A stretch of 64,000 bases of DNA from Pedosphaera parvula Ellin514. GTDB lineage: Bacteria; Verrucomicrobiota; Verrucomicrobiia; Limisphaerales; JADJPG01. Positions within the stretch are counted from its first letter, which is position 1. Each line of letters starts with the position of its first letter. The notes under the pieces were generated by a model, which was not told where the DNA came from, did no database searches, and saw nothing but the letters and a program-made list of their open reading frames with translations. Below are positions 33,698 to 54,948 of the stretch, piece by piece. A program made the translations under genes and the position numbers. The stretch lies in contig CALQPR010000021.1 of assembly GCA_943332515.1 (NCBI GenBank), forward strand, positions 9,737 through 73,736. Reading direction: 5' to 3'.

Positions 33698-33987
33698 ACA
33701 AGGGTTCTCTTCAAATCCTTCTGCGTCCGAGGGACGGATTCCTTGAGCCAAATCCGGCTTGGGTGGAGCTTGTCGCGTCCAGCGGCGCTTCAATGTAAGT
33801 TGGTCGTCAAGCTTGAATTCAAACGCGCTTTTGCGCGTCGCTGCACCTTCTTTGCGCGTCGTTGCAAAGTATTGCCGGTCGTACCGTTGACACTGGGCTC
33901 CCATTCCAAAACTTCATGCTACAAACAACGAGTCCAGACGCGGTGTTTGCAGATGTGCCGGCAGCCCGTCGTCTTGGACGATCCAGT

Positions 33988-34391: not shown

Positions 34392-34561
34392 TCATGGCTC
34401 ACCCGCACTGTTCCAGCGGTTTGTCGGAGTTCGTTTTTTGCACAGTTTCTGCCTCGTTTTTGCGCCATGAAAACGTTGAACAAATGGTGGGCGAAAATCC
34501 GTCTAGCCCTCTTGTCGTGCGGAGTGAATTGAAAACTGCACCGGACACAAAACTGTAGGCG

Positions 34562-34589
34562 GTGCAGAAATGGTGCAGAAAAAGTGCAG
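34562..34589 (+). repeat. Three 11-bp-phased GTGCAG(A)AA direct repeats (iteron/operator-like)
   Basis: GTGCAG occurs at 34562-34567, 34573-34578 and 34584-34589. An inverted copy, CTGCAC, lies at 34536-34541, and a further GTGCAG at 34652-34657. Confidence 0.4.
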
Positions 34590-34740
34590 TTCTGGAGTCG
34601 TCCGAACGAAACCGGGCTCTCCATGCCTGTCCATCTCTTGGCGCCCGTTATGTGCAGAATCCTTTCAAACTGGACGAATCGCTTCCAGTTAGGGCTCAAG
34701 CAACATTATCGCTTCTGGCAAGAGCATTCGAAATTCCCAT

Positions 34741-34769
34741 TTGACGCCGCCATGGACGCCGTGTAAATA
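34741..34769 (+). promoter_or_regulatory. Candidate sigma70-type promoter of the brnT-brnA-pseudopilin cluster
   Basis: TTGACG (34741-34746), a 17-nt spacer, then TAAATA (34764-34769), 48 nt upstream of the brnT ATG. Confidence 0.45.
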
Positions 34770-34816
34770 CAATGTAATGACAATGAATGCGCGCTGGATA
34801 TACTTTGCATCACGCT

Positions 34817-35107
34817 ATGGAGTTTGATTGGAACAATCCGCCGTTTAACTTGAGCAGCTCAATTTCCATCAAGGATATTGAGGAATCGTTTGAGGACCCG
34901 TTTGCCGTCCGTCTGCTTCCCGATTCCCCGCGTTTCTCCGCTCAAGCCAGGTTTTTCAATCTCGGAGTTTCCGCCAGCGGGACGGGGCTTCTGACCGTCT
35001 ATCGGACGAACGGCAAATCAGCCCGGGTCATTCATGCGCGCTCGTTCGAGTCGGAGGAGAAGTTCTTTTATCAACGGAAGATGAACCAGACGCTCGGAAC
35101 CACCTGA
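34817..35107 (+). CDS. BrnT-like (DUF497) toxin
   Basis: The ATG at 34817 gives MEFDWNNPPFNL...IEESFEDPFAVRLLPDSPRFSAQARFFNLGVSASGTGLLTVYRTNGKSARVIHARSFESEEKFFY. This follows the BrnT pattern FEWD...F.DP......D.......R....G....G.ll.vvyT.R....RiIsAR.a...E...Y. Confidence 0.75.
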   Translation: MEFDWNNPPFNLSSSISIKDIEESFEDPFAVRLLPDSPRFSAQARFFNLGVSASGTGLLTVYRTNGKSARVIHARSFESEEKFFYQRKMNQTLGTT

Positions 35108-35127
35108 GCGCTGCGGAATCAAATCGT

Positions 35128-35430
35128 ATGAACGTGATTAACAGTTGGGACGATGTGCCGCTCTTCGATAGCGAGGAAGGCGAGGCGGCGTATTGGGCGG
35201 AGAATCGACTCGACCTGCGCCTGATGGAATCCGCCGTGGCCGGCACCTCTGAGCTCTCGGAATCTGTTACCATCACCCTGCGCATGGACCCCCGCATGTT
35301 GGCGCGCATTAAAAGGCTGGCGCGCTCCCGCTATCTCAATTACCAAAGCATGATGAAACAATGGCTGAGCGAACGCATGGAGAACGAACTCCGCGAACGC
35401 GACAGCGGTTCCGTGCGACAAAGATTATGA
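35128..35430 (+). CDS. BrnA/CopG-like antitoxin
   Basis: 100 aa, starting 20 nt after brnT. The C-terminal segment VTITLRMDPRMLARIKRLARSRYLNYQSMMKQWLSERM matches the BrnA pattern (i.iRld.d.l...K..A...g..YQtli...L.e.l). Confidence 0.7.
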   Translation: MNVINSWDDVPLFDSEEGEAAYWAENRLDLRLMESAVAGTSELSESVTITLRMDPRMLARIKRLARSRYLNYQSMMKQWLSERMENELRERDSGSVRQRL

Positions 35431-36035
35431 TGAGCAAGATTCCCAAGTTCTCGAACCTGTGCGCTGAACGTATCCATCGGCCCTGCGTTCGCAGCGCCTT
35501 CAGCTTGATCGAGATGCTGGTGGTCATCGCCATCATCGGCTTGCTCGCGGCCTTGGTCGTGGGCGGCGCTTCTCATTTCCGCGAAACCTCCGTGCGCGCC
35601 CGTGTGCAGACGGAGCTGAACCAGGTGGTGTCCGCGATTGAGTCCTACCACAAGAAGTATGGGTTCTATCCGCAAGGCAATGGTGCTAGCTCTCCCGACC
35701 CGGTTAAGGCTCCCTTGTATTACGAACTCACGGGAACCGAGGCCGCGGCACCGGTTATCGCTTACTTTGGGGTCAAAGGGATCGTCAACGAACTCGGGAA
35801 GGAAGGTCAAAACTTCTTCTCTAACATTGGTATCGAAGGCAAGAACTACAAAGTCGTCCCCAATGTGCCGGCGAATCCGTTGGTCTTGACCGCAGGTTAC
35901 AAAGGCCCGGATGGCGACGTGAACCCCTGGCGTTACGTCTCCAAGAACCCGACGAACAACACCGAGACCTACGACCTCTGGGCGGAAGTCCTCGTCGGAA
36001 ACAAGAAGATCGTGATCGGTAACTGGAAAGACTGA
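35427..36035 (+). CDS. GspG-like pseudopilin (prepilin-type N-terminus), copy 1
   Basis: The ATG at 35427 overlaps the brnA TGA (ATGA). The leader is MMSKIPKFSNLCAERIHRPCVRSA, followed by FSLIEMLVVIAIIGLLAALVVGG with Glu at +5. GspG-like ESYHKKYGFYP and C-terminal YDLWAEV are present. Confidence 0.8.
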   Translation: MMSKIPKFSNLCAERIHRPCVRSAFSLIEMLVVIAIIGLLAALVVGGASHFRETSVRARVQTELNQVVSAIESYHKKYGFYPQGNGASSPDPVKAPLYYELTGTEAAAPVIAYFGVKGIVNELGKEGQNFFSNIGIEGKNYKVVPNVPANPLVLTAGYKGPDGDVNPWRYVSKNPTNNTETYDLWAEVLVGNKKIVIGNWKD

Positions 36036-36242
36036 TTCATGCACACCGCTGTTAACCCCTCGAAGAGCACCCGCCGCCGCTTGGATGTGGCGTGGACTGA
36101 TGTCTCGTGGGATCTGTCGTCTCTCCGTCTGCGAAAGCCGCCCTCGTTATTTTGGAGCACTGCCGGGTCATCAGCCGGAACTCGGGCTGGCGTTTCGCCA
36201 TCGGTCTCCTGTCGTCTGCCAAGTCCCTTTGCTTTTTCTCCT

Positions 36243-36956
36243 ATGATGAAACAATCCCTGAACTACTCCCGCCGCGCTCGCGGCTTCACGCTCATCGAAC
36301 TGCTGGTGGTCATCTCCATCATCGCCATTCTCGCCGGGCTCCTGCTCCCCGCCATTGCGCGGGTGAAGTTGCAGGCGAAGGTCAAGCTCGCCAAGGCGGA
36401 GATGAACATGATCGCCTCCGCCATCAAAGACTACGAGGCCGCGTATGATCGCTATCCGGCTTCCAAGGAGGCGGAGACGTATGCGAGTGACAATGGAAAC
36501 CAGGCCAAGCCTGACTTCACTTTTGGTGGACCGAGTCCGGTCACTCTAGGAACCCCGCCACAGCTGCGAGACAATCGGGATGTCATGAAGATCCTTTTAG
36601 ACATTGATGACGCAGACGGTCCGAATAAAGATCACAAACGTAACCCGAAGAAGACCGTTTTCATGAATGCGAAGCCTGCCATCAATAATGGTCCGGGACA
36701 GGGCGCGGATGGAGTGTTTCGCGATGCGTGGGGTAATCCGTATGTGATCACGATCGACATGAATGATGACAACAAGTGTCACGACGCTTACTACAGCAAG
36801 ATGCCGCAGGGCAGCGCCGTGGGATTGAATGCCGCCGGCGAAGTCACGGTTCCCGTCATGGTCTGGTCACCGGGCCCGGACGGTAAGGCGGATCCCGCTG
36901 TTGCGGCCAACCAGGGCGTGAACAAGGACAACATCCTCAGTTGGTCCGCCCGTTAA
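36243..36956 (+). CDS. GspG-like major pseudopilin, copy 2
   Basis: The ATG at 36243 gives MMKQSLNYSRRARG followed by FTLIELLVVISIIAILAGLLLPA. GspG-like IKDYEAAYDRYP, RDAWGNPYVI and VWSPGPDGKAD are present. The ORF-track start at 36039 is unlikely because it adds a non-protein-like extension. Confidence 0.85.
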   Translation: MMKQSLNYSRRARGFTLIELLVVISIIAILAGLLLPAIARVKLQAKVKLAKAEMNMIASAIKDYEAAYDRYPASKEAETYASDNGNQAKPDFTFGGPSPVTLGTPPQLRDNRDVMKILLDIDDADGPNKDHKRNPKKTVFMNAKPAINNGPGQGADGVFRDAWGNPYVITIDMNDDNKCHDAYYSKMPQGSAVGLNAAGEVTVPVMVWSPGPDGKADPAVAANQGVNKDNILSWSAR

Positions 36957-36958
36957 TC

Positions 36959-37747
36959 ATGCGCCTCCTCCCGGACAACCAACGCCGCCGCCGCCGCCAG
37001 TCCAGGGCGCGTGGTTTCACGCTCATCGAGCTCATCGTTGTCCTCGTCATCATCGGGTTGCTCGCCGCCGTTTCGCTGCCTGCGCTGAAGAACGTTCGCC
37101 AGAACAACGCGATGGTTTCTGCTGGGCGTCAGCTTGTGCAGGATCTCGCGAACGCCCGCGCCCGAGCCATCGGCGAACAGACCACCGTGTATGTCGTGTT
37201 CATGCCGGACATCTCGGGTCAGACCTTCAATAACTTGACGGCGCGAGAAACCAAACTTGTGGAGCGGCTCAAGTCGGGGCTCTATCGCAGTTATGCCACC
37301 TTCGCTCAACGCACTGTAGGAGATCAGCCTGGGACTTTGAACCCTCGTTATCTTGGCGACTGGAAATCACTGCCAGACGGCATCATCATCGAGACGAACA
37401 AATTCATGGGCCTCTTTCCTGCCGCTCCAGAGCTGCAAGCCCTGAGATACCGCTCGCAGGAATTCCCTTTCCCCACCGGTACCAGTGCCTACAGCAATTC
37501 ATTTCCGTGCGTGGCGTTCGATAATCGCGGTCGGGTGGTGGACCCGAACAATCACAGCGTTGTGCTGACGACAGGCGAAGTCATTCCCTTGGCCCGTGGC
37601 AGCATTCTCTACTCGCGTGCGGCTGACGGTTCTTTGATCGATGTGCCCGATGTTCGCGAAAGCGTGCCAGATGACCTCGCTAAACACTGGGTCGTCATCA
37701 ACGGGCTCACCGGTCGCATCCGCGTCGAAACCACCGAGCTTAAATGA
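36959..37747 (+). CDS. GspH/FimT-like minor pseudopilin
   Basis: The ATG at 36959 gives MRLLPDNQRRRRRQSRARG followed by FTLIELIVVLVIIGLLAAVSLPAL. The segment then reads AMVSAGRQLVQDLANARARAIGEQ, as in GspH. Confidence 0.75.
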   Translation: MRLLPDNQRRRRRQSRARGFTLIELIVVLVIIGLLAAVSLPALKNVRQNNAMVSAGRQLVQDLANARARAIGEQTTVYVVFMPDISGQTFNNLTARETKLVERLKSGLYRSYATFAQRTVGDQPGTLNPRYLGDWKSLPDGIIIETNKFMGLFPAAPELQALRYRSQEFPFPTGTSAYSNSFPCVAFDNRGRVVDPNNHSVVLTTGEVIPLARGSILYSRAADGSLIDVPDVRESVPDDLAKHWVVINGLTGRIRVETTELK

Positions 37748-38496
37748 ACTGCCGCATCACCAACCCAGCCCATGCAACGGAGCGACGGGCTTTGACCGGG
37801 CGCATTGATCAGGTGGCCGGCTTCTCCCGCGCGACTCAAGGTTTCACCATGATCGAAATCGCCATCGCGCTCGGCGTGATCGGTTTCGCTCTTGTTGCCA
37901 TTCTGGGCATCCTGCCCTTCGGCCTCGAAGTTCAGCGCGACAACAGGGCAGAAACCATCATCAATCAGGACGCCACGTTCTGGATCGAGGCCATCCGCAA
38001 CGGTGCCACTGGCATGGATGACCTCACCAACTGGGTGGAAGAGATTTCCACGCCGGATTCTGCGGCGGCCAACAGCTCCTACACATTTCGCGCCGGTGGC
38101 TTGAGTGATTATCAATACAGTTACGGCAGCAACATCATCAGCCTCCTGAGCACCGCACGGCGTTTTGATAACGGTAGAGTCGAGGCGATCGTCACCTCCA
38201 TCAGCGGCTCTGCTGCTGAGAAGGAATTGAATGCAGACGCGCGCGTCATCGCCTTCCGCTACCGCCTTGCCGTCGAAATTATTTCGTATTCCACCAACGC
38301 CCCTTCCTTCGATTTTCTCAACGCTCCAGCCAGTTTCCCGTACCTGGATACTCTCCACGAACTGCGCCTGACCTTCTCCTATCCCTACACCGGCAAGGGC
38401 ACCGAGCCTCGCCGCAAGACCTTCCGTTCAACCATCAGCCGGAACGTGGTGACCAACGTGGTGGGGCCTCGTGAGTACTACCTCTTTGCTCAATGA
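37744..38496 (+). CDS. GspI-like minor pseudopilin
   Basis: The ATG overlaps the upstream TGA (ATGA). The motif is QG then FTMIEIAIALGVIGFALVAILGILP. Its size and position between the H-like and J-like genes fit GspI. Confidence 0.65.
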   Translation: MNCRITNPAHATERRALTGRIDQVAGFSRATQGFTMIEIAIALGVIGFALVAILGILPFGLEVQRDNRAETIINQDATFWIEAIRNGATGMDDLTNWVEEISTPDSAAANSSYTFRAGGLSDYQYSYGSNIISLLSTARRFDNGRVEAIVTSISGSAAEKELNADARVIAFRYRLAVEIISYSTNAPSFDFLNAPASFPYLDTLHELRLTFSYPYTGKGTEPRRKTFRSTISRNVVTNVVGPREYYLFAQ

Positions 38497-39470
38497 ACAT
38501 CCCTTACAACCCGCAGCGACCGGTGCCACTGGTGGGAACGAGTTTCACCTCGTCCCGTTTTGTTTCCCGCGCATTCTCTCTCATTGAGGTCATGGTGGCG
38601 GTGTCGTTGCTCTCCTTCATCATCGTCGGGTTGCTCGCCATGTTCTTCCAGGTCCAGCGTGCCTTTCGCGCTGGAACGGCGCAGGCGGACATCATGGAGG
38701 GCGGGCGTGCCACCATGAATCTCATCGTGCGCGACCTTCAGGAGATGACCGCTTCCGGCGTGGATTTGGTGACGAACTGTCTCGTCACCGCATCGTTCGG
38801 CGCGGCAGTGACCACTCAAGACCTCGTCAGCGGCAATCGGCCGCGCCAGAACTTTCAGCAGGATCTGTGTTTCCTCACCCGCAACAACGACGAATGGGTC
38901 GGGGTGGCCTACCGGCTGAGCAACTCCGTCAGTGGCGTGGGCACGCTCTACCGACTCGTCACTAACCAATTTATCGAAACTCTTCCGCTCAACCAGATGG
39001 TTGCCATCTCGAACATGAGCGGGCTGCTTCGTGCCTCCACTCCATATAACGACACCAACTTCGCCCGTGTGCTTGATGGCGTTGTCAGCCTTATCATCAC
39101 TCCCTACGACACCAACGGCGCGATTCACCCCAACAATGACCCTGACCTCGCCCGCGTGTTCCCGCCGGTGAATCCACAGGCAACCGATGCCTTTGACCGC
39201 ACCAACGCCTTCATCCACGTCATCAACCCGGACTTCTTCGCGTTCTTCAGCAACGCCCTCCCGGCCTATCTGGACATCGAGCTCGCCGTAATCGAACCCG
39301 CCACCCTCGCCCGGTTCAAAGCCCAATGGGATATCGATGTGACACAAAACGGACCGAACGGCCCGCCGACTCGCGCCACCAACTACCTCGCGAGGCGCAT
39401 TGGCCAGACCCACATATTTCGCCAGCGCATAGCCATTCGCCCGTCTGCGACAGAGATCAGCTCTCGTTGA
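38493..39470 (+). CDS. GspJ/PulJ-like minor pseudopilin
   Basis: The ATG overlaps the upstream TGA (ATGA). The motif is SRA then FSLIEVMVAVSLLSFIIVGLLAMFF. The segment then reads AQADIMEGGRATMNLIVRDLQEM, as in GspJ/PilW-type proteins. Confidence 0.65.
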   Translation: MNIPYNPQRPVPLVGTSFTSSRFVSRAFSLIEVMVAVSLLSFIIVGLLAMFFQVQRAFRAGTAQADIMEGGRATMNLIVRDLQEMTASGVDLVTNCLVTASFGAAVTTQDLVSGNRPRQNFQQDLCFLTRNNDEWVGVAYRLSNSVSGVGTLYRLVTNQFIETLPLNQMVAISNMSGLLRASTPYNDTNFARVLDGVVSLIITPYDTNGAIHPNNDPDLARVFPPVNPQATDAFDRTNAFIHVINPDFFAFFSNALPAYLDIELAVIEPATLARFKAQWDIDVTQNGPNGPPTRATNYLARRIGQTHIFRQRIAIRPSATEISSR

Positions 39471-39491
39471 TGAATTCTCATTTCCCTTAAG

Positions 39492-43328: not shown

Positions 43329-43465
43329 GGCCGGGAGGATGAGGGGCGGGCGCGCGCATGGAGCGATTTCAACGGATGAAATGGGTTGGGATTTGTGACC
43401 GGGCGACCTCTGGTTGGGCCGCAAAAACCCTGTCGTAATCGAAGTATTTTGTGATTTAATACGTT

Positions 43466-46400: not shown

Positions 46401-49400
46401 TCGTCACGAATCAATTGCCGCAGTCAGACCCGCAATTCACCAACGCCCCGATTGCCGCCGCGACGAACATCGCCTTCGCCACGTTCCTTCCGCCCAATCT
46501 TTCACGCGCCCGCACCAACCGGTCGGACATCGATTTGTATGTGTCGCGCGATTCCAGTATCACAAATCTGAATCCGGCTGCCATCGCCGCCTCACGCCGT
46601 TCCCTCAAGCGGGGCGGCACGGAGTCGGTGGTGCTCGGGCTTGCCGATTCTTTGAGGGGTGGAGAGATCTTTTACGCTGGCGTAAAGTGCGAGGATCAGC
46701 AGGCGGCGAGCTTCGGCTTCTTTGCCGTCTCCAGCAGTTCGCCCTTCAGCAGCACGGATACGAACGGCAATGTGTACATGGAAGGCTATCCCTTCGGTGT
46801 GGAAATCCCGGATGGCACTCCCGCCGAGCCGCAGGCGGCGTTCATGTTCGCTTTCTCTACGGAACAGATCGTCATCCAGAATGTCGTTGTCACCAATTAC
46901 ATCACGCACACCAACGGCGGCGATTTGTTCGGCGCGCTGGATCTCGATGGCAGCAAGGTCTCGGTGCTCAATGCCAACCGTTCCTTCCACAGTCTTTTCC
47001 CTTACGAGTTCATTTACGACGACAGCGATTCGGGCGAAATTCAGGGGAGCACTCGTACGGATACGCCGGGAACACTTCGCAACTTTGTCGGTGAGGAAGG
47101 GCTGGGTGCGTGGCGATTGACGATGGTGGATAGCGCGCCCGGTGACACTGGCCAGGTGAACCGGCTCCTGATCAAGCTTGAGCCACGCAAGGAAGACCTG
47201 ACCAATGGCGTCGGCATCGTGGAGACGATTCTGCCGGGACGCTTTTTCTACACCGTGGTGGATGTCTCCGCGACGGTGACGAATCTCCAGGTGTGCGTCT
47301 CGCCGGACGCCGGCGTGGTCGAGGTGTATATCCGGCGCGCAGACTTTCCGGACCAGGACAATTACGACATCCTTGGCGTGGTCGGGCCGCCGGGGGATTG
47401 CATCAACCTGGGCCTGCGCGATTCGCCGCCGCTGTCTCGCGGCCGCTACTACATCGGCATCTACAACCCGAACGCGCTGGCGGTGACGGTGGGCATCAAG
47501 GTGAATCTCCAGCATGATTTGAGGAAGGGATCGACCCTCCGCTTCCGTGGTGGCGATGGGGAGCTGATCGTCGATGACGCGGTGACGACGTCCACGCAGT
47601 TCGTCGGCTACAACGGGATCATCTCAGATGTGGAAGTGGGAATCCGCATCGCGCATGAGCGGGTGTCGGATCTCGTGCTTCACCTGGTCAGTCCGGAAGG
47701 GACGCGTCTGTTGCTCACGGAGAATCGCGGAAGAGACACGGCGGATTATGGGTTCGGGACGTTGCAGACGAACTTTTTTGCTCTGCCGGTTGACCAAACT
47801 AATAATCCCACTTCTGTAACGAATGTGTTCGGTCCGATCCTGCCGGAAGGCACCATCAGTATCACGTATGATTTCGGGAACCAGTTCACCGACCGAATGA
47901 CCGTCTATTACGATGGGATTCGGATCTATGACACAGGAGTTGTGCTGGGACCGGGTTCGTTCTCGGTTGATTATGGTCCGGGTCTGGCGACGAACTTTGT
48001 CGTCATCATGAATGAGGATGGGAATCCATTTGGAGGCACCGGATATACTTACACGCCGACCGTGTACACCAGTTACCACTATTCCACCTTCACCGAGAGC
48101 ACCGAGCGCGCGCGTCTGCCCATCAAGTTCGAGCCGCCGCCGTTCACAAACTTCAACTACTACGCCACGAACTACGTCACTAACGTCACGCTGGTGGCCG
48201 ATGGCTTCGAGGATCGTTTCCGGGGACCACGATTGCTCGGCACGGGAGCGAACCTCACCGGCTGGCAGGTCACGACCGGCAGCGTTAACGTCGTGACGAA
48301 CCTCTCCAATCTCGCGACCAACACATTCCTCGCGGCCTATGAGGGGTTGAGGTTCATCGATCTCAATGGTGTCACCAATGGTGTGATCGCGACGAACCTG
48401 ACCACGGTTCCTGGCACGTCCTATCGCGTCAGCTACGTCTATGCAAAGAACCCTGCCAATCCCAGCGACACCACGGCGGACATCCGGCTGCTGGATACCA
48501 ACAGCATTCGCTTCCAGAAGGAACTCGTCATCGCCTCGGCAGCGACGTGGCGAACCGGCGCGTTCTTCTTCAATGCGCTGGATGACCGCACCACGCTGGA
48601 AGTCATGTCCACCACGGCCAGCGATTCCGGCGTGCTCTTCGACATCTTCAGGGTCGAGCAGATCTCTACGAACATCGTCGCGGGCATCTATTATCTGCCC
48701 GAGGAACCGCTCACGCCGCTCTTTGGCCAGAACGCGTTTGGCAACTGGACGCTGGAGATTCTCGACAACCGCGTCGGTGGTGGCGTCACCAATTCGCTGC
48801 TCGGCTGGAAGCTGAACCTCACCTTCGTAAACACGAATCCTCCGGCCATCCAGCTCTTCAACGACACCAACTACTGCCTGACCATGCAGGCAGATGAGAC
48901 GGTGTACTTCTACGTGGACGTGCCGATCACCGCTTCCGCAGCGACGAACTTCTTCAGTGGCAGCGATCAACTGGATGTCTTCTACAACCAGAGCGGCCTG
49001 CCGGCATTGCATGAACCGCCGGACACTGCCTTCTTCTACAACGTGCTGGATGGGCAGACGGTTCTGGGCATCGATGGCTGGAACAGCATTGATGACGCCG
49101 GGGGCTTCGCGGGAGGTTCCGTCACCCCGACGCTCGCACCGGGCAAGCGCTACTACCTCGCGCTGCACAATCGCGGCACCGGCACCAACGGCGTGTGTGT
49201 TCGCGTGGCGTTCGATGAGCTTTCGCCGAACCTCGTGGGCATCATCCCGCTCACCAACCAGTGTTTTAGCTATTCCGGCGTCGTCACGAATGCCGGGGCG
49301 ATTGATTATTACTCGTTCGATGTTGTTTCTAGCAACGCGCTGGGTGTTCGCTTCTCGGTGACGAATATTATCGGAGGGTCGTCGAACGACGTGAACCTCG

Positions 49401-52400
49401 TGGTGCGTCGTGGCGTGCCGCTGCCGAACCTCACGCGTTACACCGGGATCAGCACTAATGCCTCGCCGTTGGATGGGGAGTTCATCGAAGTGGCGGACTT
49501 CTTCCAGACGACGCTCGCTGGTCGTTGGTATATTGGCGTCATTCACACCACGGTGAACCCGGTCGCCTACGACGTGTGCGCCGAGGAAGTGGGGGGCGAC
49601 ATCACCGAGGTTTTCAATAACGTATTGCAACCCGCGCAGAACGCTGCGGTGACCAATGCCGGCGACATCAGCTACTTCAAGATTCTGATCTCGCCACGCA
49701 CCTTCCTTGCTGACTTCCAGCTCACAAATATCGTCGGCGGCAGCAACATGGACCTCTACCTCAGCTCGGGCACCATGCAGCCGTTGTTTGGCACGCCGAC
49801 GAACTGGCTGTACGCCTCGACGAACTTCAGTCCTGCGCCGGCTCCCAATAACTTCGAGTCCAACCGTGTCTCGGCGTTCTCCTCGAGCCAGCCGCTGACT
49901 CCGGGATGGTGGTTCGTCGCAGCCGTCAACAAGTCGGCAGGGCCGGTGGATTTCGGAGTCCATGTCACGGAGTACCAGACAAACCTTCCCTACCTCCAGC
50001 TCACGAACGGTCTCGCGTTCTGCAAAACCCTGATCGATTCCAATGACATCGGCTTCTACTGGTTCGATGTCTCCCCGGATGCATTGCAGGTGGACTACGA
50101 GGTCTTCAACCTAAAGGATGATGCGGACCTGTTCGCGCATCCGCTGTTTGAGCTCCCGCCGCCCGGCTTCCTGCGCTTCCTCGATCTCGCGAGCACAAAC
50201 CTGCTGACGGCGGACGAGTTTATTGGGACGACCTTCACGACCGGCCAGCGGCCGTTTCCCTTCAGTCTCTTGAGCTCTCGTGGTCCGTGGTATCTGACGG
50301 TCAAACCCAAGGTGCCGATTCCGGTGCCGGCCCAGGTCTATCCCATCGATTACTGCATCCGCGCCACCGAGATCACCGCGCGTGATGTTCAGCCGCTGAC
50401 CAACGGACTGGCGGTTTGCAAAACCATCCCTGGCCGCGACACCAACACGCTCTATACGGGAGTGCAGTTCCATTCCATCGATGTCGTCGGCGTTCCCTTG
50501 CAGGCGACGTTCGAGACCTTCGGGGCCAATGGCAACGTGGACCTCTATGTGCAGCGCAACCTGCCGTTCACCAATTACAGCACCTACACCAATGGCGGTT
50601 CCAGTTTGTATCCGTACTCCGGCGAGCAGTTGGGGACGTTGGGAGAATACATCTGCATCGGCACGAACACGACGCCCGTGGCGCTGGCTCCCGGCCGCTG
50701 GTACGTGGTGGCCGTAAACCGTGAGGTGGTTTCGGTGGATTACTGCCTGCGTGCGTCCTTCGTCTCCTCGCAGAACCTGGTTCAGATCGGCAACGGCGAG
50801 ACCTTCTGCCGCACTCTTGGCATCGCCAATGGCGGGCCGATCTCCGGTCAGGATTACTACGTGTTCCGCGTCGCCACCAACGTCGTGCAGGCGACCTTCG
50901 AAACTCTTTCGTCGAGCGGCAACGTGGATCTTTTCCTCACCAGAAACCTGTGCCTGACCAACTTCAGCACCTACAACGCCGCGCTCGCGCCGTATCCCTA
51001 CTACAGCACGAACCTCGGCACGCAGCAGGATCTCATCTGCCTCGGCACGAACACCACACCTGTGAACCTGGGTCCGGGCGATTGGTATCTCACCGTGGTC
51101 AACCGGGAACCCCTGACGCCCGTGGACTATTGCGTCCGCTCCACGCAGTTGGTCTCGACCAACTTCATCCGCGTCACGAACAGCGGTGCCATCTGCAACG
51201 TGGCGGGTGTGGGAACAAATGACGGCACCGCCGCCACCGGCATCGATTACTACATCATCGACGTCAGCAGCAGTCCGGTGCTGATGAACTTCCAGACCTA
51301 CAACGCCAGCGGTAACGTGGACCTCTACGTCACGCGCGATCCATGCCTGCCGAACTTCGCGGCGTTCGATGCCGCCACCACGGACTATCCGTACTCCAGC
51401 ACGCTGCCGGGCACTGCCGCGGAATGCCTGAGCGTCACCAGCACCTCCGTGCCGCAGGTGCTGACGAACGGTGAATGGTATGTGGCCGTGGTGAACCGCT
51501 CTGCCACGCCGGTGAGCTACTGCTTCCTCGCCACGCCGTTTGCAACCGACCCTGCCACGCCCTTGACCAACCGCGCTCCGCTTTGTGCCCAGACTGTCAC
51601 CAACGGCAGCGACACGAACCTCGTCGGCGCGAATTACTACGCCTTCGACGTGCCCACCAACGCGCTGCAAGTGACGTTCGAGGTCTATGGCGCGAGCGGC
51701 AATGTGGACCTCTACGTGAGCGACGGCTTCTGCTTCGAGAACCGCGACACTTTCTCTCTCGCCACCACGAACGCCGCCTACTTCAGCACGAATCTCGGCG
51801 TGACCAGCGAGAGCATTCTCGTTGCAGGTTCATCCTCGCCCGCGCCGCTTGTGACCGGCCCTTGGTATCTCGCCGTGGTGAATCGTGAGCCTTCACCGGT
51901 CGCCGTAGATTATTGCGTCAAGGTGACCGCGCTTCTGACCACGGATGTCGTCGGGCTCACCAATGGCATTGGTTACACGCCGTCCAGCGCGCTGGCTCCG
52001 CGCAACGTCGCGTTCTACCACTACAAGATTTCGCCAAACGCGGTGCAGGCGACCTTCCAGATTATCAATGCCGACGGCGACGTGGACCTCTACGTCGAGC
52101 GCGGCTTCAGTCCGGCGGACATTTATTCGTCCAGCTACGCCAGCACCAACGCTGGCATGATCGAGGAACGGGTCACCGTTTCGACCAGCTCCCCTGTGCC
52201 GCTCACGCCGGTCGAGTGGTTCCTCGCGGTGACGAACTCTGATGCCTCCGCCGTGAACTACACCGTGCGTGTCACCGAGGTGCTCGATACCGGAGTCATT
52301 CGCCTCCTCAACGCTCTTCCTTACACGAACACCGTCGCCGCCCTCGGTTCCCTCACCGGGTTGCCGGCGAACTATTACGTCTTCACCGTCTCGAACGACG

Positions 52401-53137
52401 CCGTGCGCGCGCAGTTCGAAGTGCTGGCTCCGAGCGGCGACGTGACCCTGGTCGCGCGTCAGGGACTACCCTTGCCGGACCTTTCCACCGCCACCGTGTT
52501 CAGCACGAACAGCGGGACGACATCGGAGCTCATCGTGCTGTTCACGAACTCGGTGCCGATTGCATTGACGCCGGGTGACTGGTATCTCGGGGTGTTGAAC
52601 AACACGAGCAACGACGTGACCTACGCCGCAATTGCCACGCAATACTTCAGCGAGGGGACCAACATTACTCCCGGCCCGATCACGATCAGTAGCAATCTAT
52701 TTTGCACGAGCTACGCGGGTGTTCTGCCGGGTGTGAACTACTACATCGAAGGAGCTGCAAACTTCAATCCGCCCATCCTCTGGGTGCCGGTTACTCCGAC
52801 CATCAAGGCCACCGGCACCACGCTCAACTGGTGCATCGCGCTGCCGAACACCTACAGCTTCTTCCGCCTGCGCGAAGGTCTGTCGCCGCTGTCCTCGGGC
52901 AGTCCGACGACCTTCACTGCGTCGGGTTTCGCCGCCGGTGCCTTGGGATTGCAATGGAACGCGCCGCCGGGATTGCGGTTTGTCGCGGAATATACCGAGT
53001 CCCTGTTCCCGCCCGTCTGGCAGCCGTATCCCGATTACATCACGTCCACCAACACGGTTTACAGCTTCAATGACGACGGTTCCAGGACGGCTCCGCTCGG
53101 GCCTGCCCGCTATTACCGGTTCTTCCAAGTCCCTTGA
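43466..53137 (+). CDS. Giant membrane-anchored subtilisin-family (S8) serine protease with P-domains, a DUF642-like module and about 10 PPC-like modules (3,223 aa)
   Basis: The N-terminal TM anchor is WFIISLLFFVAAAVFW. The catalytic triad motifs are NVNDTG (Asp codon 44396-44398), HGTHVAG (His codon 44468-44470) and SGTSMAAP (Ser codon 45497-45499). P-domain-like segments are ITHTNGGDL...GAWRLTMVDSAPGDTG and IAHERVSDLVLHLVSPEGTRLLL...GNWTLEILDNRVGG. PPC-like GNVDLYV signatures recur. Confidence 0.9.
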   Translation: MQFRTRTWFIISLLFFVAAAVFWQLGERKLARDKAAKSAVSGPAAAGATAGSSLTNAPVVPAAATNASVLATNANDPLRFRLSNTTLTERQLLDRDPALLLMNALVDTASPVNLPIPAHLRAQGDPGSYVVQSRGPLTDAFRAALKLAGVEIVSYVPNNAYLVRASAAAATQLAALPQTQTVLPWEPYFKLEDELLALAVEQKPLPVTRQLNVLVYSADRQAVETTLAAMNVVVIEAERSPFGVLLVVRPPRDAVVALAQLPGVQRIEINRLKVTANDQARTRLRVSTNGLLAAPSFRNLTGQGVLVNVNDTGVEGIHPALTGRVLGLQTDLEGHGTHVAGTIAGDGANSPAGAIPGSVTNASFRGVAPASKIFANTFGNSDANMQESAAATNAFISNNSWGYIDGGGYTLSAASWDAAVRDALPGVEGSQPLLAVFAAGNSGAFGIDAPASAKNVITVGALENLRGITNFVTVIEYAESNRFQPWLDMTDSSNQVASFSSVGNIGRRREGESGRFKPDVVAPGTFVISARASTWVQPTNLYSYETRRIPLVRLDADEFEVYSVFVPLHGVQIDVTCQPNQFTGPNPLPQLPIYVQEGSAPAVPGTSVGDNRATVGPPLVPVPPGTWYIAVENKGSNIARFDVSITVTITNNLGDEPEQFFKLNEILAPNYRYESGTSMAAPAVSGALALMQEYFATLGATNSPALMKALLINGARSANDEYDFDVSADRNRQGWGLVNITNSVPGTATVGPGYDSAQRTLTSPTMVCYDQVSTRALATGQSFTKSVNIAANARTSPLRFSLVWTDPPGNPSVGVKLVNDLDLVVSNNVTHEIFAGNSFGPGNTFTFGSDTNTTNGLVLDRVNNVENVYVSASFNQRLSDSYTVTVSARRVNVNAVTAHPDGVVQDFALVISHGNPRTAIGFPITLGNEPIIDAPLPEVTVVTNGVPLLNQRAGANSPLVVPAGLEFTNGVPAQWHFFVVTNQLPQSDPQFTNAPIAAATNIAFATFLPPNLSRARTNRSDIDLYVSRDSSITNLNPAAIAASRRSLKRGGTESVVLGLADSLRGGEIFYAGVKCEDQQAASFGFFAVSSSSPFSSTDTNGNVYMEGYPFGVEIPDGTPAEPQAAFMFAFSTEQIVIQNVVVTNYITHTNGGDLFGALDLDGSKVSVLNANRSFHSLFPYEFIYDDSDSGEIQGSTRTDTPGTLRNFVGEEGLGAWRLTMVDSAPGDTGQVNRLLIKLEPRKEDLTNGVGIVETILPGRFFYTVVDVSATVTNLQVCVSPDAGVVEVYIRRADFPDQDNYDILGVVGPPGDCINLGLRDSPPLSRGRYYIGIYNPNALAVTVGIKVNLQHDLRKGSTLRFRGGDGELIVDDAVTTSTQFVGYNGIISDVEVGIRIAHERVSDLVLHLVSPEGTRLLLTENRGRDTADYGFGTLQTNFFALPVDQTNNPTSVTNVFGPILPEGTISITYDFGNQFTDRMTVYYDGIRIYDTGVVLGPGSFSVDYGPGLATNFVVIMNEDGNPFGGTGYTYTPTVYTSYHYSTFTESTERARLPIKFEPPPFTNFNYYATNYVTNVTLVADGFEDRFRGPRLLGTGANLTGWQVTTGSVNVVTNLSNLATNTFLAAYEGLRFIDLNGVTNGVIATNLTTVPGTSYRVSYVYAKNPANPSDTTADIRLLDTNSIRFQKELVIASAATWRTGAFFFNALDDRTTLEVMSTTASDSGVLFDIFRVEQISTNIVAGIYYLPEEPLTPLFGQNAFGNWTLEILDNRVGGGVTNSLLGWKLNLTFVNTNPPAIQLFNDTNYCLTMQADETVYFYVDVPITASAATNFFSGSDQLDVFYNQSGLPALHEPPDTAFFYNVLDGQTVLGIDGWNSIDDAGGFAGGSVTPTLAPGKRYYLALHNRGTGTNGVCVRVAFDELSPNLVGIIPLTNQCFSYSGVVTNAGAIDYYSFDVVSSNALGVRFSVTNIIGGSSNDVNLVVRRGVPLPNLTRYTGISTNASPLDGEFIEVADFFQTTLAGRWYIGVIHTTVNPVAYDVCAEEVGGDITEVFNNVLQPAQNAAVTNAGDISYFKILISPRTFLADFQLTNIVGGSNMDLYLSSGTMQPLFGTPTNWLYASTNFSPAPAPNNFESNRVSAFSSSQPLTPGWWFVAAVNKSAGPVDFGVHVTEYQTNLPYLQLTNGLAFCKTLIDSNDIGFYWFDVSPDALQVDYEVFNLKDDADLFAHPLFELPPPGFLRFLDLASTNLLTADEFIGTTFTTGQRPFPFSLLSSRGPWYLTVKPKVPIPVPAQVYPIDYCIRATEITARDVQPLTNGLAVCKTIPGRDTNTLYTGVQFHSIDVVGVPLQATFETFGANGNVDLYVQRNLPFTNYSTYTNGGSSLYPYSGEQLGTLGEYICIGTNTTPVALAPGRWYVVAVNREVVSVDYCLRASFVSSQNLVQIGNGETFCRTLGIANGGPISGQDYYVFRVATNVVQATFETLSSSGNVDLFLTRNLCLTNFSTYNAALAPYPYYSTNLGTQQDLICLGTNTTPVNLGPGDWYLTVVNREPLTPVDYCVRSTQLVSTNFIRVTNSGAICNVAGVGTNDGTAATGIDYYIIDVSSSPVLMNFQTYNASGNVDLYVTRDPCLPNFAAFDAATTDYPYSSTLPGTAAECLSVTSTSVPQVLTNGEWYVAVVNRSATPVSYCFLATPFATDPATPLTNRAPLCAQTVTNGSDTNLVGANYYAFDVPTNALQVTFEVYGASGNVDLYVSDGFCFENRDTFSLATTNAAYFSTNLGVTSESILVAGSSSPAPLVTGPWYLAVVNREPSPVAVDYCVKVTALLTTDVVGLTNGIGYTPSSALAPRNVAFYHYKISPNAVQATFQIINADGDVDLYVERGFSPADIYSSSYASTNAGMIEERVTVSTSSPVPLTPVEWFLAVTNSDASAVNYTVRVTEVLDTGVIRLLNALPYTNTVAALGSLTGLPANYYVFTVSNDAVRAQFEVLAPSGDVTLVARQGLPLPDLSTATVFSTNSGTTSELIVLFTNSVPIALTPGDWYLGVLNNTSNDVTYAAIATQYFSEGTNITPGPITISSNLFCTSYAGVLPGVNYYIEGAANFNPPILWVPVTPTIKATGTTLNWCIALPNTYSFFRLREGLSPLSSGSPTTFTASGFAAGALGLQWNAPPGLRFVAEYTESLFPPVWQPYPDYITSTNTVYSFNDDGSRTAPLGPARYYRFFQVP
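49230..52650 (+). repeat. Nine tandem PPC-like coding modules (about 120-138 aa each) inside the giant protease gene
   Basis: The (N/D)(V/M/A)(D/N/T)L(Y/F/V) signature codons recur at about 49390, 49748, 50122, 50536, 50924, 51316, 51704, 52082 and 52442. The spacing is 358-414 nt. Each module also carries LTNG..., DYY.F.V...LQ.TFE and W(Y/F).AV.N. Confidence 0.7.
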
Positions 53138-54069: not shown

Positions 54070-54111
54070 GAAATGTGTTGAGAGTCAGAGGTTGAGAATT
54101 GAGCCCGATCA

Positions 54112-54942: not shown

Positions 54943-54948
54943 AAGCTT

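What the first reader, a model, noticed from the sequence alone, without database searches (positions are those of the whole stretch)
34741..53137. Stand-alone G-G-H-I-J-K pseudopilin operon joined to a toxin-antitoxin pair and a 3,223-aa anchored S8 protease: candidate cargo-dedicated pseudopilus system
Seen in sequence: nine co-directional genes follow a near-consensus promoter (TTGACG-N17-TAAATA). They are brnT-like, brnA-like, two GspG-like pseudopilins, then H-, I- and J-like pseudopilins, all with (G/A)-F-(T/S)-(L/M)-I-E prepilin motifs. Three junctions are ATGA overlaps (35427, 37744, 38493). A K-like protein of about 1,240-1,280 aa follows, and after a 137-bp gap comes a 3,223-aa membrane-anchored subtilase. 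Nothing else in the 64 kb encodes a secretin, GspE/PilB ATPase, GspF platform, GspC/L/M or prepilin peptidase.
Established knowledge: a type II secretion pseudopilus is a GspG fibre capped by a GspH-I-J-K tip. The tip is thought to contact substrates. These genes normally sit inside a gspC-O operon, and GspK is roughly 300-350 aa.
Inference: this may be a self-contained pseudopilin cassette that relies on a machine encoded elsewhere. Its tip subunit is enlarged about four-fold and its neighbour is a giant protease, so it could be a cargo-specific or protease-displaying pseudopilus or surface fibre. I know of no described system with this composition. I cannot exclude that the protease adjacency is coincidental.
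Basis: partly seen in the sequence, partly recalled or inferred. Interest (0 to 1): 0.85.

Follow-up and report, generated by a model that had tools for sequence, protein, structure and literature searches.

The report
Pilus tip operon with giant protease
This is a nine-gene cassette, kept intact across hundreds of Verrucomicrobial species, that links the pilin and tip genes of a type IV pilus-like fibre to a 3,223-residue subtilisin-type protease and a toxin-antitoxin-like regulator pair, so the fibre and the protease almost certainly work together, although how has not been tested.

Summary
Nine co-directional genes sit at 34,817-53,137: a BrnT-like ORF, a BrnA/CopG ORF, five prepilin-type proteins, a 1,241-aa protein with a GspK-type N-terminus, and a 3,223-aa S8 protease with an intact catalytic triad. 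The window has no machine genes.

The adjacency is not coincidental. Relatives of the giant K-like protein occur at 583 or more places in species-representative genomes, almost all Verrucomicrobiota. In 83 independent loci (31-57% identity) every one with enough flank keeps the full order: small ORFs 61/61, S8 catalytic region 69/69. In 36 of 54 loci a PilT-family ATPase, a PilB/GspE ATPase and PilC/GspF lie directly upstream, so the system is type IVa pilus-like, not a classical T2SS.

The "toxin-antitoxin" pair is the best conserved part (about 71% and 78% identity against 33-42% for the pilins). It follows a conserved promoter with 11-bp-periodic repeats (55/61 loci), so it looks like a fixed regulator.

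The J-like model matches GspJ/XcpW. The giant K has no solved relative. Both giants end in conserved C-terminal strands.

Best reading: pilin and tip operon plus a dedicated protease that is tip-presented or exported. Function is untested. It is a new variant of a known kind.

The parts
34741..34789 (+). Conserved promoter and candidate operator: TTGACG (-35), 17 nt, TAAATA, overlapped by 11-bp-periodic TACAWTG repeats
   Evidence: Found in 55 of 61 loci against 0.065 in shuffles. -35 is TTGACA in 40 loci; spacer is 17-18 nt in 48. Consensus GTGTAAATACAATGTAAAGACATTGCATGG. Not listed by the consensus scanner.
34817..35107 (+). orf1: 96-aa BrnT/DUF497-like protein
   Evidence: PF04365 at 23 bits, below the 34.5 cutoff. 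27 of 28 orthologs hit sub-threshold. Median 71% identity across 62 loci. Only 124 representative clusters at E<=1e-3.
35128..35430 (+). orf2: 100-aa ribbon-helix-helix BrnA/CopG-type protein, candidate repressor of the operon
   Evidence: PF12441 at 39.2 bits, above the cutoff of 28. Median 78% identity across 63 loci. Its stop overlaps the pilin 1 start as ATGA.
35427..36035 (+). Pilin 1 (202 aa), prepilin motif A|FSLIE
   Evidence: N_methyl 24 bits. GspG TIGR01710 at 35.9 bits, below cutoff, N-terminus only. Present in 62/62 loci.
36243..36956 (+). Pilin 2 (237 aa), prepilin motif G|FTLIE
   Evidence: N_methyl 35 bits; T2SSG 18.4 bits, below cutoff. GspG TIGR01710 at 49.7 bits, below 88.85. 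Present in 62/62 loci.
36959..37747 (+). Minor pilin, H-like by position (262 aa), G|FTLIE
   Evidence: Verru_Chthon D 41.8 bits and GspH 39.4 bits, both below cutoff. The ortholog profile matches solved pilins only through the alpha-1 helix. Present in 73/74 loci.
37744..38496 (+). Minor pilin, I-like by position (250 aa), G|FTMIE
   Evidence: Verru_Chthon B 23.6 bits, below cutoff. The profile matches solved pilins only weakly, through the N-terminal helix (E 0.008 or worse); its one significant hit is a designed coiled-coil. Present in 74/74 loci.
38493..39470 (+). Minor pilin with a GspJ/XcpW-like fold (325 aa), A|FSLIE
   Evidence: AF2 model pLDDT 85, pTM 0.77. The top six Foldseek PDB hits are all XcpW: probability 0.80-1.00, E 2.4e-3 to 6e-2. 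Present in 74/74 loci.
39603..43328 (+). Giant K-like capping subunit (1,241 aa): GspK-type N-terminus G|VALVI without Glu5, a large body of unknown fold, and a conserved C-terminal strand RP(R/H)AVVESFNILP
   Evidence: NF037980 GspK about 20 bits and TIGR02600 about 33 bits, N-terminus only. More than 1,275 homologs. AF2 pLDDT 76, pTM 0.75. No Foldseek PDB hit at E<=1e-3 and no PDB sequence hit. C-terminus conserved.
43466..53137 (+). Giant modular S8 subtilase (3,223 aa): N-terminal signal or anchor, pro-region, S8 domain with insert, P-domain, DUF642, about 11 PPC-like repeats, and a conserved C-terminal pair of domains ending RYYRFFQVP
   Evidence: PF00082 130 bits, PF01483 62.5 bits. Triad D311/H335/S678. 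Nearest solved relatives are 1wmd and 5fax. Downstream of K in 69/69 loci. C-terminal half is variable across the family; the extreme C-terminus is conserved.

Best explanation
The region is the pilin and tip-complex operon of a retraction-capable, type IVa pilus-like filament system conserved in Verrucomicrobiota (record titles name Limisphaerales, Pedosphaera and subdivision 3).

Shown: nine genes form one fixed, co-directional module. Five are prepilin-type proteins with Glu5. The sixth, the giant K, has the GspK/PilX-type N-terminus without Glu5, which marks the most apical subunit. Relatives carry PilT, PilB/GspE and PilC/GspF immediately upstream. The giant S8 gene always follows K.

Inferred: pilins 1 and 2 build the fibre. 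The H-, I- and J-like proteins plus K form the initiation and tip complex. K is a hugely expanded cap whose conserved C-terminal strand completes its own pilin-like sheet, as in GspK and CpaL/TadG. The subtilase occupies the slot that PilY1 and MshQ occupy after pilIJK homologs. It is exported by Sec, and autoprocessing of its pro-region releases it from the N-terminal anchor. It is then carried through the outer membrane on or by the tip complex, through its conserved C-terminal domains. The result would be a retractile fibre with a proteolytic head whose variable lectin, PPC and Laminin_G modules bind substrates.

Also inferred: the BrnT/BrnA-like pair is a domesticated regulator. The ribbon-helix-helix protein binds the conserved 11-bp-periodic repeats that overlap the -10 region and represses the operon, and the BrnT-like partner acts as co-repressor or as an RNase acting on the transcript.
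For: Module conservation across 83 independent loci with differing flanks: orf1 61/61, orf2 61/61, pilins 62/62, H 73/74, I 74/74, J 74/74, S8 N-terminal region 71/71, S8 catalytic region 69/69.

Motor genes directly upstream in 36/54 loci, with PilT family TIGR01420 at 455.7 bits against a cutoff of 319.1.

Glu5 present in the five pilins and absent in K. GspK and Verru_Chthon_A N-terminal hits in 17 and 29 of 33 family members. J-like fold matches XcpW/GspJ.

No promoter-like or terminator-like site and no RNA structure in the K-S8 gap.

Conserved extreme C-termini of both giants. The S8 family has a conserved N-terminal half and conserved C-terminal end, with a variable adhesin-like middle.

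Published principles: PilC/PilY1 dock by a C-terminal beta-strand onto PilK; their adhesin parts can exceed 3,000 aa; MshQ follows mshDOP; GspK and CpaL self-complement (PMC12918778). D. nodosus subtilases need type IV fimbriae for optimal secretion (PMC3480457).

Regulator: orf1 and orf2 are the most conserved genes (71% and 78%). The conserved promoter and repeat block occurs in 55/61 loci.
Against: No experiment and no complex model exists; every step after gene content is inference.

The K body and the S8 have no PilY1 beta-propeller. If K supplies its own C-terminal strand, the PilY1-type docking groove would already be filled.

A stand-alone S8 paralog with the same C-terminus exists without any pilin genes (L089). 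RFYR-type tails also occur on two other large secreted proteins. The tail may therefore be a general tag rather than a tip-docking strand.

No secretin, PilMNOP or prepilin peptidase has been seen near any locus. The assembly ATPase and the platform score equally well as GspE/GspF.

Sampling covers only the 80 best of 583 or more matches.

The H and I labels have no support beyond the N-terminal helix.
Confidence: 0.42

Rival explanations
1. Secreted cargo. The filament works as a T2SS-like piston, or as a secretion-competent type IV pilus. The giant subtilase is a dedicated substrate pushed through the secretin and then released or retained on the surface, without being a stable tip subunit.
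For: G-H-I-J-K gene order with a GspJ-like fold. The assembly ATPase and platform score as GspE/GspF as well as PilB/PilC. D. nodosus subtilases depend on type IV fimbriae for secretion (PMC3480457). Stand-alone S8 paralogs and other large proteins share the RFYR-type C-terminus, which fits several substrates with a common tag. In Omnitrophota, T2SS-like loci precede giant genes, some with S8 domains (10.1101/2023.11.21.568195).
Against: A PilT-family retraction ATPase is adjacent in relatives. Position-fixed linkage with no exception among sampled loci, down to about 31% identity, is tighter than expected for a mere substrate (the comparison with known substrate genes rests on my own knowledge). 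A distal position in a minor-pilin operon suggests low, tip-like stoichiometry rather than bulk enzyme. A folded protein of about 340 kDa is a very large secretin substrate.
Confidence: 0.25
2. Co-regulation only. The pilus genes provide adhesion or motility and the protease provides digestion within one foraging programme. They share a promoter and regulator but have no physical or export dependency, and the protease uses another route.
For: S8 family members also occur without the module (L089). No docking domain of a known type was detected. The window holds several other peptidases, which suggests a proteolytic lifestyle.
Against: 69/69 adjacency in fixed order and orientation despite different flanks and 31-57% divergence. 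No terminator-like or promoter-like site between K and S8 in the window. Functionally related but independent genes rarely keep such strict synteny.
Confidence: 0.2
3. Maturation protease. The subtilase processes the giant K protein or the pilins, for example by trimming or activating them, and is an assembly factor rather than a payload.
For: An S8 domain with a kexin-type P-domain recalls processing proteases. The N-terminal anchor would place the zymogen at the inner membrane next to unassembled pilins. The authors of the Omnitrophota study suggested that S8 domains might cleave giant proteins (10.1101/2023.11.21.568195).
Against: A processing enzyme has no obvious need for 2,400 further residues of variable lectin, PPC and Laminin_G modules. 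No type IV filament system is known to me that needs an S8 protease; prepilins are cut by an A24 peptidase (own knowledge).
Confidence: 0.06
4. Chance neighbours: a mobile BrnTA toxin-antitoxin pair and an unrelated protease gene that happen to flank a pilin cassette.
For: BrnTA-type pairs are usually mobile (own knowledge).
Against: orf1 and orf2 are present in 61/61 loci and the S8 in 69/69, in different genomic contexts. orf1 and orf2 are the most conserved genes of the locus. orf1 belongs to a small discrete clade of 124 clusters. The promoter and operator block is conserved.
Confidence: 0.02

Closest known systems
Type IVa pilus minor-pilin/PilY1 operons (P. aeruginosa fimU-pilVWXY1E; N. 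gonorrhoeae pilHIJK plus PilC; V. cholerae mshDOPQ)
   Same: A stand-alone operon apart from the motor genes. Four tip or initiation pilins in H-I-J-K order. The apical K-type subunit lacks Glu5. A very large Sec-exported non-pilin protein is encoded immediately downstream, with a conserved extreme C-terminus and a variable adhesin part. A PilT-family ATPase is present in relatives (PMC12918778).
   Different: No PilY1/PilC beta-propeller domain. The downstream protein is an active-looking S8 protease. The K subunit is 1,241 aa rather than roughly 200-350 aa, and has its own conserved C-terminal strand. A BrnTA-like pair heads the operon. The pilin globular domains, apart from J, show no detectable similarity.
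T2SS pseudopilus GspG-H-I-J-K (Xcp, Gsp, Eps)
   Same: Gene order G,G,H,I,J,K. Class III signals. K without Glu5. The J-like model matches XcpW. A K subunit that may supply its own terminal strand.
   Different: All Gsp family scores are below cutoff and cover the N-terminus only. The K body has no GspK-like match. No gspC/D/L/M/N/O genes nearby. A PilT retraction ATPase sits beside the module in relatives.
Verru_Chthon cassette (NCBIfam/TIGRFAMs TIGR02596 D, TIGR02598 B, TIGR02599 C, TIGR02600 A)
   Same: The same design in the same phylum: prepilin-type proteins followed by a very large protein (the protein A model is 1,296 positions long) with a pilin-like N-terminus. The window's H, I, J and K hit D, B, C and A respectively.
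   Different: All four scores are far below the family cutoffs and limited to the N-termini (41.8 vs 70; 23.6 vs 51.4; 17.4 vs 256.5; 32.7 vs 332.3). This is a separate, parallel family. As far as I recall, an S8 partner or a BrnTA pair is not part of that definition. No paper on the cassette was found.
Tad pilus tip protein CpaL/TadG
   Same: An N-terminal minor-pilin-like part, a large inserted body and a conserved extreme C-terminal strand (PMC12918778). This is the architecture proposed here for the giant K.
   Different: CpaL is about 600 aa and belongs to the Tad (type IVc) system. No sequence or fold match was tested or found.
Type IV fimbria-dependent subtilase secretion in Dichelobacter nodosus (AprV2, AprV5, BprV)
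   Same: Subtilisin-type proteases, one with a P-domain extension, whose optimal secretion needs the type IV pilus system (PMC3480457).
   Different: Those proteases are far smaller (AprV5's reported C-terminal cleavage site is near residue 477) and are not described there as part of the pilin operon. The mechanism is unknown.
Giant genes of Omnitrophota preceded by T2SS-like loci (West-Roberts et al., bioRxiv 10.1101/2023.11.21.568195)
   Same: A PVC-group phylum. A conserved type II/IV-like secretion locus with class III signal peptide genes lies directly upstream of a giant surface protein gene. Some of those giants carry N-terminal S8 domains.
   Different: Those loci include gspD/E/F and rcpC-type genes and much larger proteins. 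No giant K-like subunit or BrnTA pair is reported. Homology to this module was not tested.
BrnTA type II toxin-antitoxin system
   Same: Toxin-first order, a small gap, a DUF497/BrnT-like first gene and a PF12441 ribbon-helix-helix second gene, behind a promoter with repeats suited to autoregulation.
   Different: BrnT scores below threshold. The pair is fixed at one position in every sampled locus and is the most conserved part of it. That behaviour suits a dedicated regulator rather than a mobile addiction module.

Membership tests
T2SS pseudopilus (GspG/H/I/J/K) | Class III signal with G/A|F-x-x-x-E (Glu5) in the G, H, I and J subunits | tested here: met
   AFSLIE, GFTLIE, GFTLIE, GFTMIE and AFSLIE in the five pilins. 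N_methyl or TIGR02532 above cutoff in four of the five; the I-like protein is just below on both (18.1 vs 21.2 and 15.8 vs 16.3).
T2SS pseudopilus (GspG/H/I/J/K) | K subunit lacks Glu5 | tested here: met
   RG|VALVI in the 1,241-aa protein.
T2SS pseudopilus (GspG/H/I/J/K) | Proteins score above the curated cutoffs of TIGR01710, TIGR01708, TIGR01707, TIGR01711 and NF037980 | tested here: not met
   Best scores are 49.7 (cutoff 88.85), 39.4 (80), 18.3 (44.35), 16.5 (64.85) and 19.9 (130). All alignments cover only the N-terminal 60 residues or so.
T2SS pseudopilus (GspG/H/I/J/K) | GspJ fold | tested here: inconclusive
   The top six Foldseek hits are all XcpW, with probability 0.80-1.00 and target TM 0.40-0.61. 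E-values are 2.4e-3 to 6e-2, and none is at or below 1e-3.
T2SS pseudopilus (GspG/H/I/J/K) | GspK fold (pilin domain with alpha-helical insertion) | tested here: not met
   No PDB hit at E<=1e-3 for the AF2 model, and no GspK among the 50 best listed hits. No PDB sequence hit for the family profile.
T2SS pseudopilus (GspG/H/I/J/K) | Embedded in a gspC-O operon, with no retraction ATPase | tested here: not met
   No gsp machine genes in the window. Relatives carry a PilT-family ATPase (455.7 bits against a cutoff of 319.1) next to the PilB/GspE and PilC/GspF genes.
Type IVa pilus minor-pilin/PilY1 module | Four minor pilins followed by a large Sec-exported non-pilin protein | tested here: met
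   Gene order and N-terminal features. Conserved in all sampled loci.
Type IVa pilus minor-pilin/PilY1 module | PilY1/PilC C-terminal beta-propeller domain | tested here: not met
   No PilY1-type Pfam or NCBIfam hit in K or the S8. No such fold match for K. The S8 C-terminal domains were not modelled.
Type IVa pilus minor-pilin/PilY1 module | PilB, PilC and PilT motor set | tested here: met
   Directly upstream in 36 of 54 relatives. Absent from this 64-kb window.
Type IVa pilus minor-pilin/PilY1 module | Secretin PilQ, PilMNOP and prepilin peptidase PilD in the genome | not testable with these tools
   Only 10 kb either side of each locus could be read. None was seen there.
Type IVa pilus minor-pilin/PilY1 module | C-terminal beta-strand of the large protein complements the K-subunit sheet | not testable with these tools
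   No complex prediction was available. Both K and the S8 have conserved extreme C-termini.
Verru_Chthon cassette (TIGR02596/98/99/02600) | Scores above the four family cutoffs | tested here: not met
   41.8 (70), 23.6 (51.4), 17.4 (256.5) and 32.7 (332.3), N-termini only.
Verru_Chthon cassette (TIGR02596/98/99/02600) | Architecture: prepilin-type proteins plus a very large protein (model length 1,296) in Verrucomicrobia | tested here: met
BrnTA toxin-antitoxin | BrnT_toxin PF04365 above the gathering score | tested here: not met
   23.1-23.4 bits against 34.5. 27 of 28 orthologs hit at E<=0.01. No solved BrnT matched.
BrnTA toxin-antitoxin | BrnA/CopG_antitoxin PF12441 above the gathering score | tested here: met
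   39.2 bits against 28. NCBIfam BrnA reaches 18.8 against 60.
BrnTA toxin-antitoxin | Patchy, mobile distribution typical of type II TA pairs | tested here: not met
   Fixed at the head of the module in 61/61 loci, and the most conserved genes there.
BrnTA toxin-antitoxin | Toxicity of the first protein neutralised by the second | not testable with these tools
   Needs expression experiments.
Subtilase S8 with P-domain | Peptidase_S8 domain with an Asp-His-Ser triad | tested here: met
   PF00082 at 130.1 bits. D311, H335 and S678 sit in the canonical motifs. Nearest solved relatives are 1wmd and 5fax.
Subtilase S8 with P-domain | P_proprotein domain | tested here: met
   PF01483 at 62.5 bits against a cutoff of 21.

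The most novel reading that the evidence does not exclude
A retractile type IV pilus-like fibre in Verrucomicrobiota carries a roughly 340-kDa modular subtilase on a 1,241-residue cap subunit, held by C-terminal beta-strand complementation. Other RFYR-tailed enzymes (stand-alone S8 paralogs, a sedolisin, Laminin_G proteins) could be interchangeable heads. Expression of the whole device would be gated by a domesticated BrnTA toxin-antitoxin pair acting at a conserved operator. In short, an enzymatic grappling hook for protein or cell-surface foraging.
Probability: 0.18. Interest if true: 0.88.

Novelty: new variant of a known kind. Interest (0 to 1): 0.64.

Why it matters
Type IV filaments are known to adhere, pull, take up DNA and secrete. 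A filament module that is invariably wired to a giant protease would add enzymatic presentation or dedicated giant-cargo export to that list. It would do so in abundant, poorly cultured soil and freshwater Verrucomicrobiota that are thought to live on polymers.

The locus also provides a natural test of the recent beta-strand-complementation model for tip assembly. It has a K subunit four times the normal size and a candidate non-PilY1 tip partner.

Separately, a BrnTA-like pair that is fixed, highly conserved and placed behind a conserved operator at the head of a structural operon is a clear candidate for a toxin-antitoxin module turned into a dedicated regulator. That is directly testable by EMSA, reporter fusions and toxicity assays.

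Tried and rejected
(1) An exact look-up of the 1,278-aa ORF found nothing, because the public gene call starts at Met38. It was solved via P0001.

The first 41 residues were trimmed for the structure job.

It was redone with hits from the last homolog search.

(4) Foldseek and hmmsearch of K against the PDB gave only weak beta-sandwich noise, so no fold assignment is made for K.

(5) Profiles of the H, I and J orthologs against PDB sequences matched only the alpha-1 helix. FimU scored E=1.1 for H and was rejected as insignificant.

(6) orf1 and orf2 profiles against the PDB gave no BrnT or BrnA hit.

Conservation analysis replaced it.

(8) RNA folding of the pilin1-pilin2, J-K and K-S8 gaps and the 5' leader gave z-scores above 0, so there is no structured element.

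(9) A literature search for "Verru_Chthon" returned nothing. Searches combining Verrucomicrobia with pilins, subtilisin, PilY1 or pseudopilin found no paper on this locus.

(10) Considered and rejected: a mobile TA pair, chance adjacency, and a classical T2SS (see the rival explanations and membership tests).

Full report
WHAT IS THERE

The window carries nine co-directional genes on the + strand between 34,817 and 53,137. Conserved starts in orthologs and the public gene calls for the identical contig (GCA_943333325.2) set the boundaries:
- orf1: 34817-35107 (96 aa)
- orf2: 35128-35430 (100 aa)
- pilin 1: 35427-36035 (202 aa)
- pilin 2: 36243-36956 (237 aa)
- H-like: 36959-37747 (262 aa)
- I-like: 37744-38496 (250 aa)
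- J-like: 38493-39470 (325 aa)
- giant K-like: 39603-43328 (1,241 aa)
- S8 protease: 43466-53137 (3,223 aa)

The three ATGA overlaps are real. So are the five (G/A)|F(T/S)(L/M)IE motifs with Glu5, and so is the K-type RG|VALVI N-terminus without Glu5. The protease has the canonical Asp311, His335 and Ser678 motifs. It also has Peptidase_S8 (130 bits), P_proprotein (62.5 bits), DUF642 and weak PPC hits. Its nearest solved relatives are the KP-43 and SubHal subtilases.

The flanks are housekeeping genes: LptF/G, a GluQ-RS-like gene and pstSCAB-phoU. The window contains no secretin, ATPase, platform or prepilin peptidase gene.

FAMILY LABELS

Every Gsp and Verru_Chthon model scores below its curated cutoff and aligns only to the N-terminal helix. 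Ortholog profiles of the H-like and J-like proteins reach solved pilins only through that helix. The I-like profile does so only weakly, and its one significant hit is a designed coiled-coil.

A confident AlphaFold2 model of the J-like protein (pLDDT 85) has XcpW/GspJ as its six best PDB matches. Foldseek probability is 0.80-1.00 and E-values run from 2.4e-3 to 6e-2. The "J" label therefore has modest fold support.

The giant K model (pLDDT 76, pTM 0.75) has no PDB match at E<=1e-3. The family profile hits no solved sequence. Its K-likeness rests on three things: the N-terminal segment (GspK about 20 bits, Verru_Chthon_A about 33 bits, in 17 and 29 of 33 members), the missing Glu5, and its position in the operon.

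IS THE ARRANGEMENT MORE THAN CHANCE?

The giant K protein has more than 1,275 full-length relatives of 1,200-1,350 aa.

I searched 88 fetched loci with the nine window proteins. After removing five duplicates, 83 loci remained, with K identity of 31-57%. Every locus with enough flank keeps the same genes in the same order and orientation:
- orf1 61/61; orf2 61/61
- pilins 62/62 each
- H 73/74; I 74/74; J 74/74
- S8 N-terminal region 71/71; S8 catalytic region 69/69

The flanking genes differ between loci, so the module is the conserved unit.

The reciprocal test adds a nuance. Two of three S8 homologs chosen outside the K hit list have the complete module upstream. The third is a stand-alone paralog with no pilin genes (L089). 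Every sampled K gene has an S8 gene beside it, but not every S8 gene has a K.

WHICH MACHINE?

In 36 of 54 loci with 10 kb of upstream sequence, four genes lie directly upstream of orf1: a short GspE/PilB-like ATPase, a second ATPase, a MshEN+T2SSE ATPase of about 567 aa, and a T2SSF platform protein.

NCBIfam places the second ATPase firmly in the PilT/PilU family (455.7 bits against a cutoff of 319.1). The assembly ATPase and the platform score equally as GspE/PilB and as GspF/PilC. A retraction ATPase is a hallmark of type IVa pili, not of T2SS.

In type IVa and MSHA systems, a minor-pilin operon separate from the motor genes, followed by a large non-pilin protein, is the norm (PMC12918778).

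THE SMALL ORFS

orf1 is BrnT/DUF497-like but below threshold: 23 bits against 34.5, with 27 of 28 orthologs hitting at E<=0.01. orf2 passes the CopG_antitoxin cutoff.

They are by far the most conserved genes of the locus. Median identity to the window is about 71% and 78%, against 33-42% for the five pilins and about 33% for K. orf1 belongs to a small, discrete clade of only 124 representative clusters among 1.84 billion proteins.

Upstream of orf1, 55 of 61 loci share TTGAC(A) followed by 17-18 nt and then GTGTAAATACAATGTAAAGACATTGCATGG. The block contains TACAWTG repeats at 11-bp spacing that overlap the -10-like hexamer; shuffled controls give 0.065 hits. The -10 itself is a poor match to the consensus.

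This is the expected layout of a promoter with an overlapping ribbon-helix-helix operator. I read the pair as a domesticated regulator. That reading is an inference.

THE TWO GIANT PROTEINS

The S8 family has a conserved N-terminal half: signal or anchor, pro-region, S8 domain, P-domain. The second half is variable and modular, with PPC repeats, Laminin_G_3, C-type and L-type lectin, DUF642 and Calx-beta domains. Total lengths run from 2,167 to 4,048 aa.

The extreme C-terminus is conserved...F.F.DDGSQTGG....RFYR...LP in roughly 105 of 120 sequences, including the stand-alone paralog. The K family ends in RP(R/H)AVVESFN(I/V)(L/I)P. RFYR-type tails also occur on two other large secreted proteins in L090: a sedolisin-Ig protein and a Laminin_G_3 protein.

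Ellison et al. (PMC12918778) report four relevant points:
- PilC/PilY1 adhesins dock by an extreme C-terminal beta-strand that completes the PilK sheet.
- Their adhesin parts can exceed 3,000 residues.
- MshQ (about 1,200 aa) follows the pilIJK homologs in MSHA loci.
- GspK and CpaL/TadG supply that strand themselves.

The present locus has candidates for both solutions.

MECHANISM

Best-supported reading (confidence about 0.42). This is the pilin and tip operon of a retraction-capable type IVa pilus-like filament. The giant K is a CpaL/GspK-style, self-completing cap. The subtilase sits in the PilY1/MshQ slot. It is Sec-exported, freed from its anchor by pro-region autoprocessing, and carried out on or by the tip complex. 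The BrnTA-like pair autoregulates the operon.

Shown: gene content, motifs, conservation, linkage, the PilT-family neighbour, the J fold, and the operator-like block.
Inferred: every assembly, export and regulation step.

Rivals:
- Released T2SS-like cargo (0.25). Precedent: D. nodosus subtilases need type IV fimbriae for optimal secretion (PMC3480457).
- Co-regulation without physical coupling (0.20).
- A maturation protease (0.06).
- Chance adjacency or a mobile TA pair (0.02), refuted.

COMPARISON WITH WHAT IS KNOWN, AND NOVELTY

The design is that of known type IV filament tip modules: fimU-pilVWXY1, mshDOPQ, GspGHIJK and CpaL. It is also close to the curated but, as far as my searches show, unpublished Verru_Chthon cassette. 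The window proteins resemble that cassette in architecture but fail its membership cutoffs. Omnitrophota giant genes, some with N-terminal S8 domains, preceded by T2SS-like loci are a published parallel in a related phylum (10.1101/2023.11.21.568195).

I found no paper describing this particular module. Three features appear to be new:
- the invariable coupling of a 1,241-aa K-type cap to a giant S8 protease of about 2,170 to over 4,000 aa;
- the fixed, highly conserved BrnTA-like pair with its conserved operator;
- the shared RFYR-type tail.

I rate it a new variant of a known kind, with interest 0.64. The link is real and widespread and opens clear experiments. The class of machine is familiar, and the function is still inferred.

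LIMITS

- Only the 80 best of 583 or more genome matches were examined.
- Only 10 kb either side of each locus could be read, so secretin, PilMNOP and PilD status is unknown.
- No complex modelling was available, so tip docking and cargo export cannot be told apart.
- The H and I labels are positional only.

Noticed in passing
window 1823-2488 (-): An orphan prepilin-type ORF (221 aa; N_methyl 24 bits), far from the cassette and on the other strand.
   Followed up: no
window 4800-6308 (-) and 6251-8752 (-): A DUF1501 gene next to a PSCyt1/PSCyt2/PSD1 (planctomycete cytochrome C-type) gene. As I recall, this pairing is typical of PVC bacteria. Function unknown.
   Followed up: no
window 18402-21257 (+) and 21316-23433 (+): Two tandem DPP-IV/prolyl-oligopeptidase (S9) genes, with a putative aminopeptidase at 10270-11385 (-). 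Together with the giant S8 they suggest a peptide-foraging lifestyle.
   Followed up: no
window 53401-59898 (-): A complete phoU-pstB-pstA-pstC-pstS phosphate uptake operon followed by a Porin_5 gene, immediately downstream of and convergent with the protease gene.
   Followed up: no
L006 3974-5133: An IS element (HTH_Tnp_1 plus rve transposase genes) is inserted between the CopG-type gene and pilin 1 in one relative. It separates the regulator pair and promoter from the pilin genes.
   Followed up: partly
L014 5784-6704: The CopG-type ORF and pilin 1 are in one frame with no stop codon between them. This apparent regulator-pilin fusion or readthrough occurs in 1 of 63 loci examined.
   Followed up: partly
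L002 13672-23690: In a second public assembly that carries the identical K protein, the protease region is called as several short genes on both strands plus an 1,884-aa 3' part. This suggests a frameshift, an assembly error or a disrupted variant.
   Followed up: no
L090 16581-19352 (-) and 23166-26525 (-): Two other large secreted proteins near a module end in an RFYR-type tail like that of the protease: an 899-aa Laminin_G_3/DUF2341 protein and a 1,150-aa sedolisin-Ig protein. This may be a general C-terminal tag of large exported Verrucomicrobial proteins.
   Followed up: partly
L089 10001-17545: A stand-alone 2,514-aa paralog of the protease, with an L-type lectin domain and the same C-terminal tail, sits among unrelated genes with no pilin cassette. 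A small L-type lectin gene lies next to it.
   Followed up: partly
L010, L027, L033, L034, L036, L039, L048, L051, L077, L079, L086, L087: Several species-representative MAGs titled Bifidobacterium, Bifidobacteriaceae, Methylomirabilota, Acidoferrum, Saccharimonadales or Aquilonibacter carry this otherwise Verrucomicrobial locus. The bins are probably mislabelled or contaminated.
   Followed up: no
L007 13946-14479; L090 9805-9975: Some relatives have an extra small ORF (177 aa and 56 aa) between the giant K gene and the protease gene. The window has none.
   Followed up: no
window 33914-34624 (-): A 236-aa divergently oriented gene just upstream of the promoter block has no Pfam hit. The two relatives checked at the gene-call level (L004, L006) have different genes at this position.
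   Followed up: no
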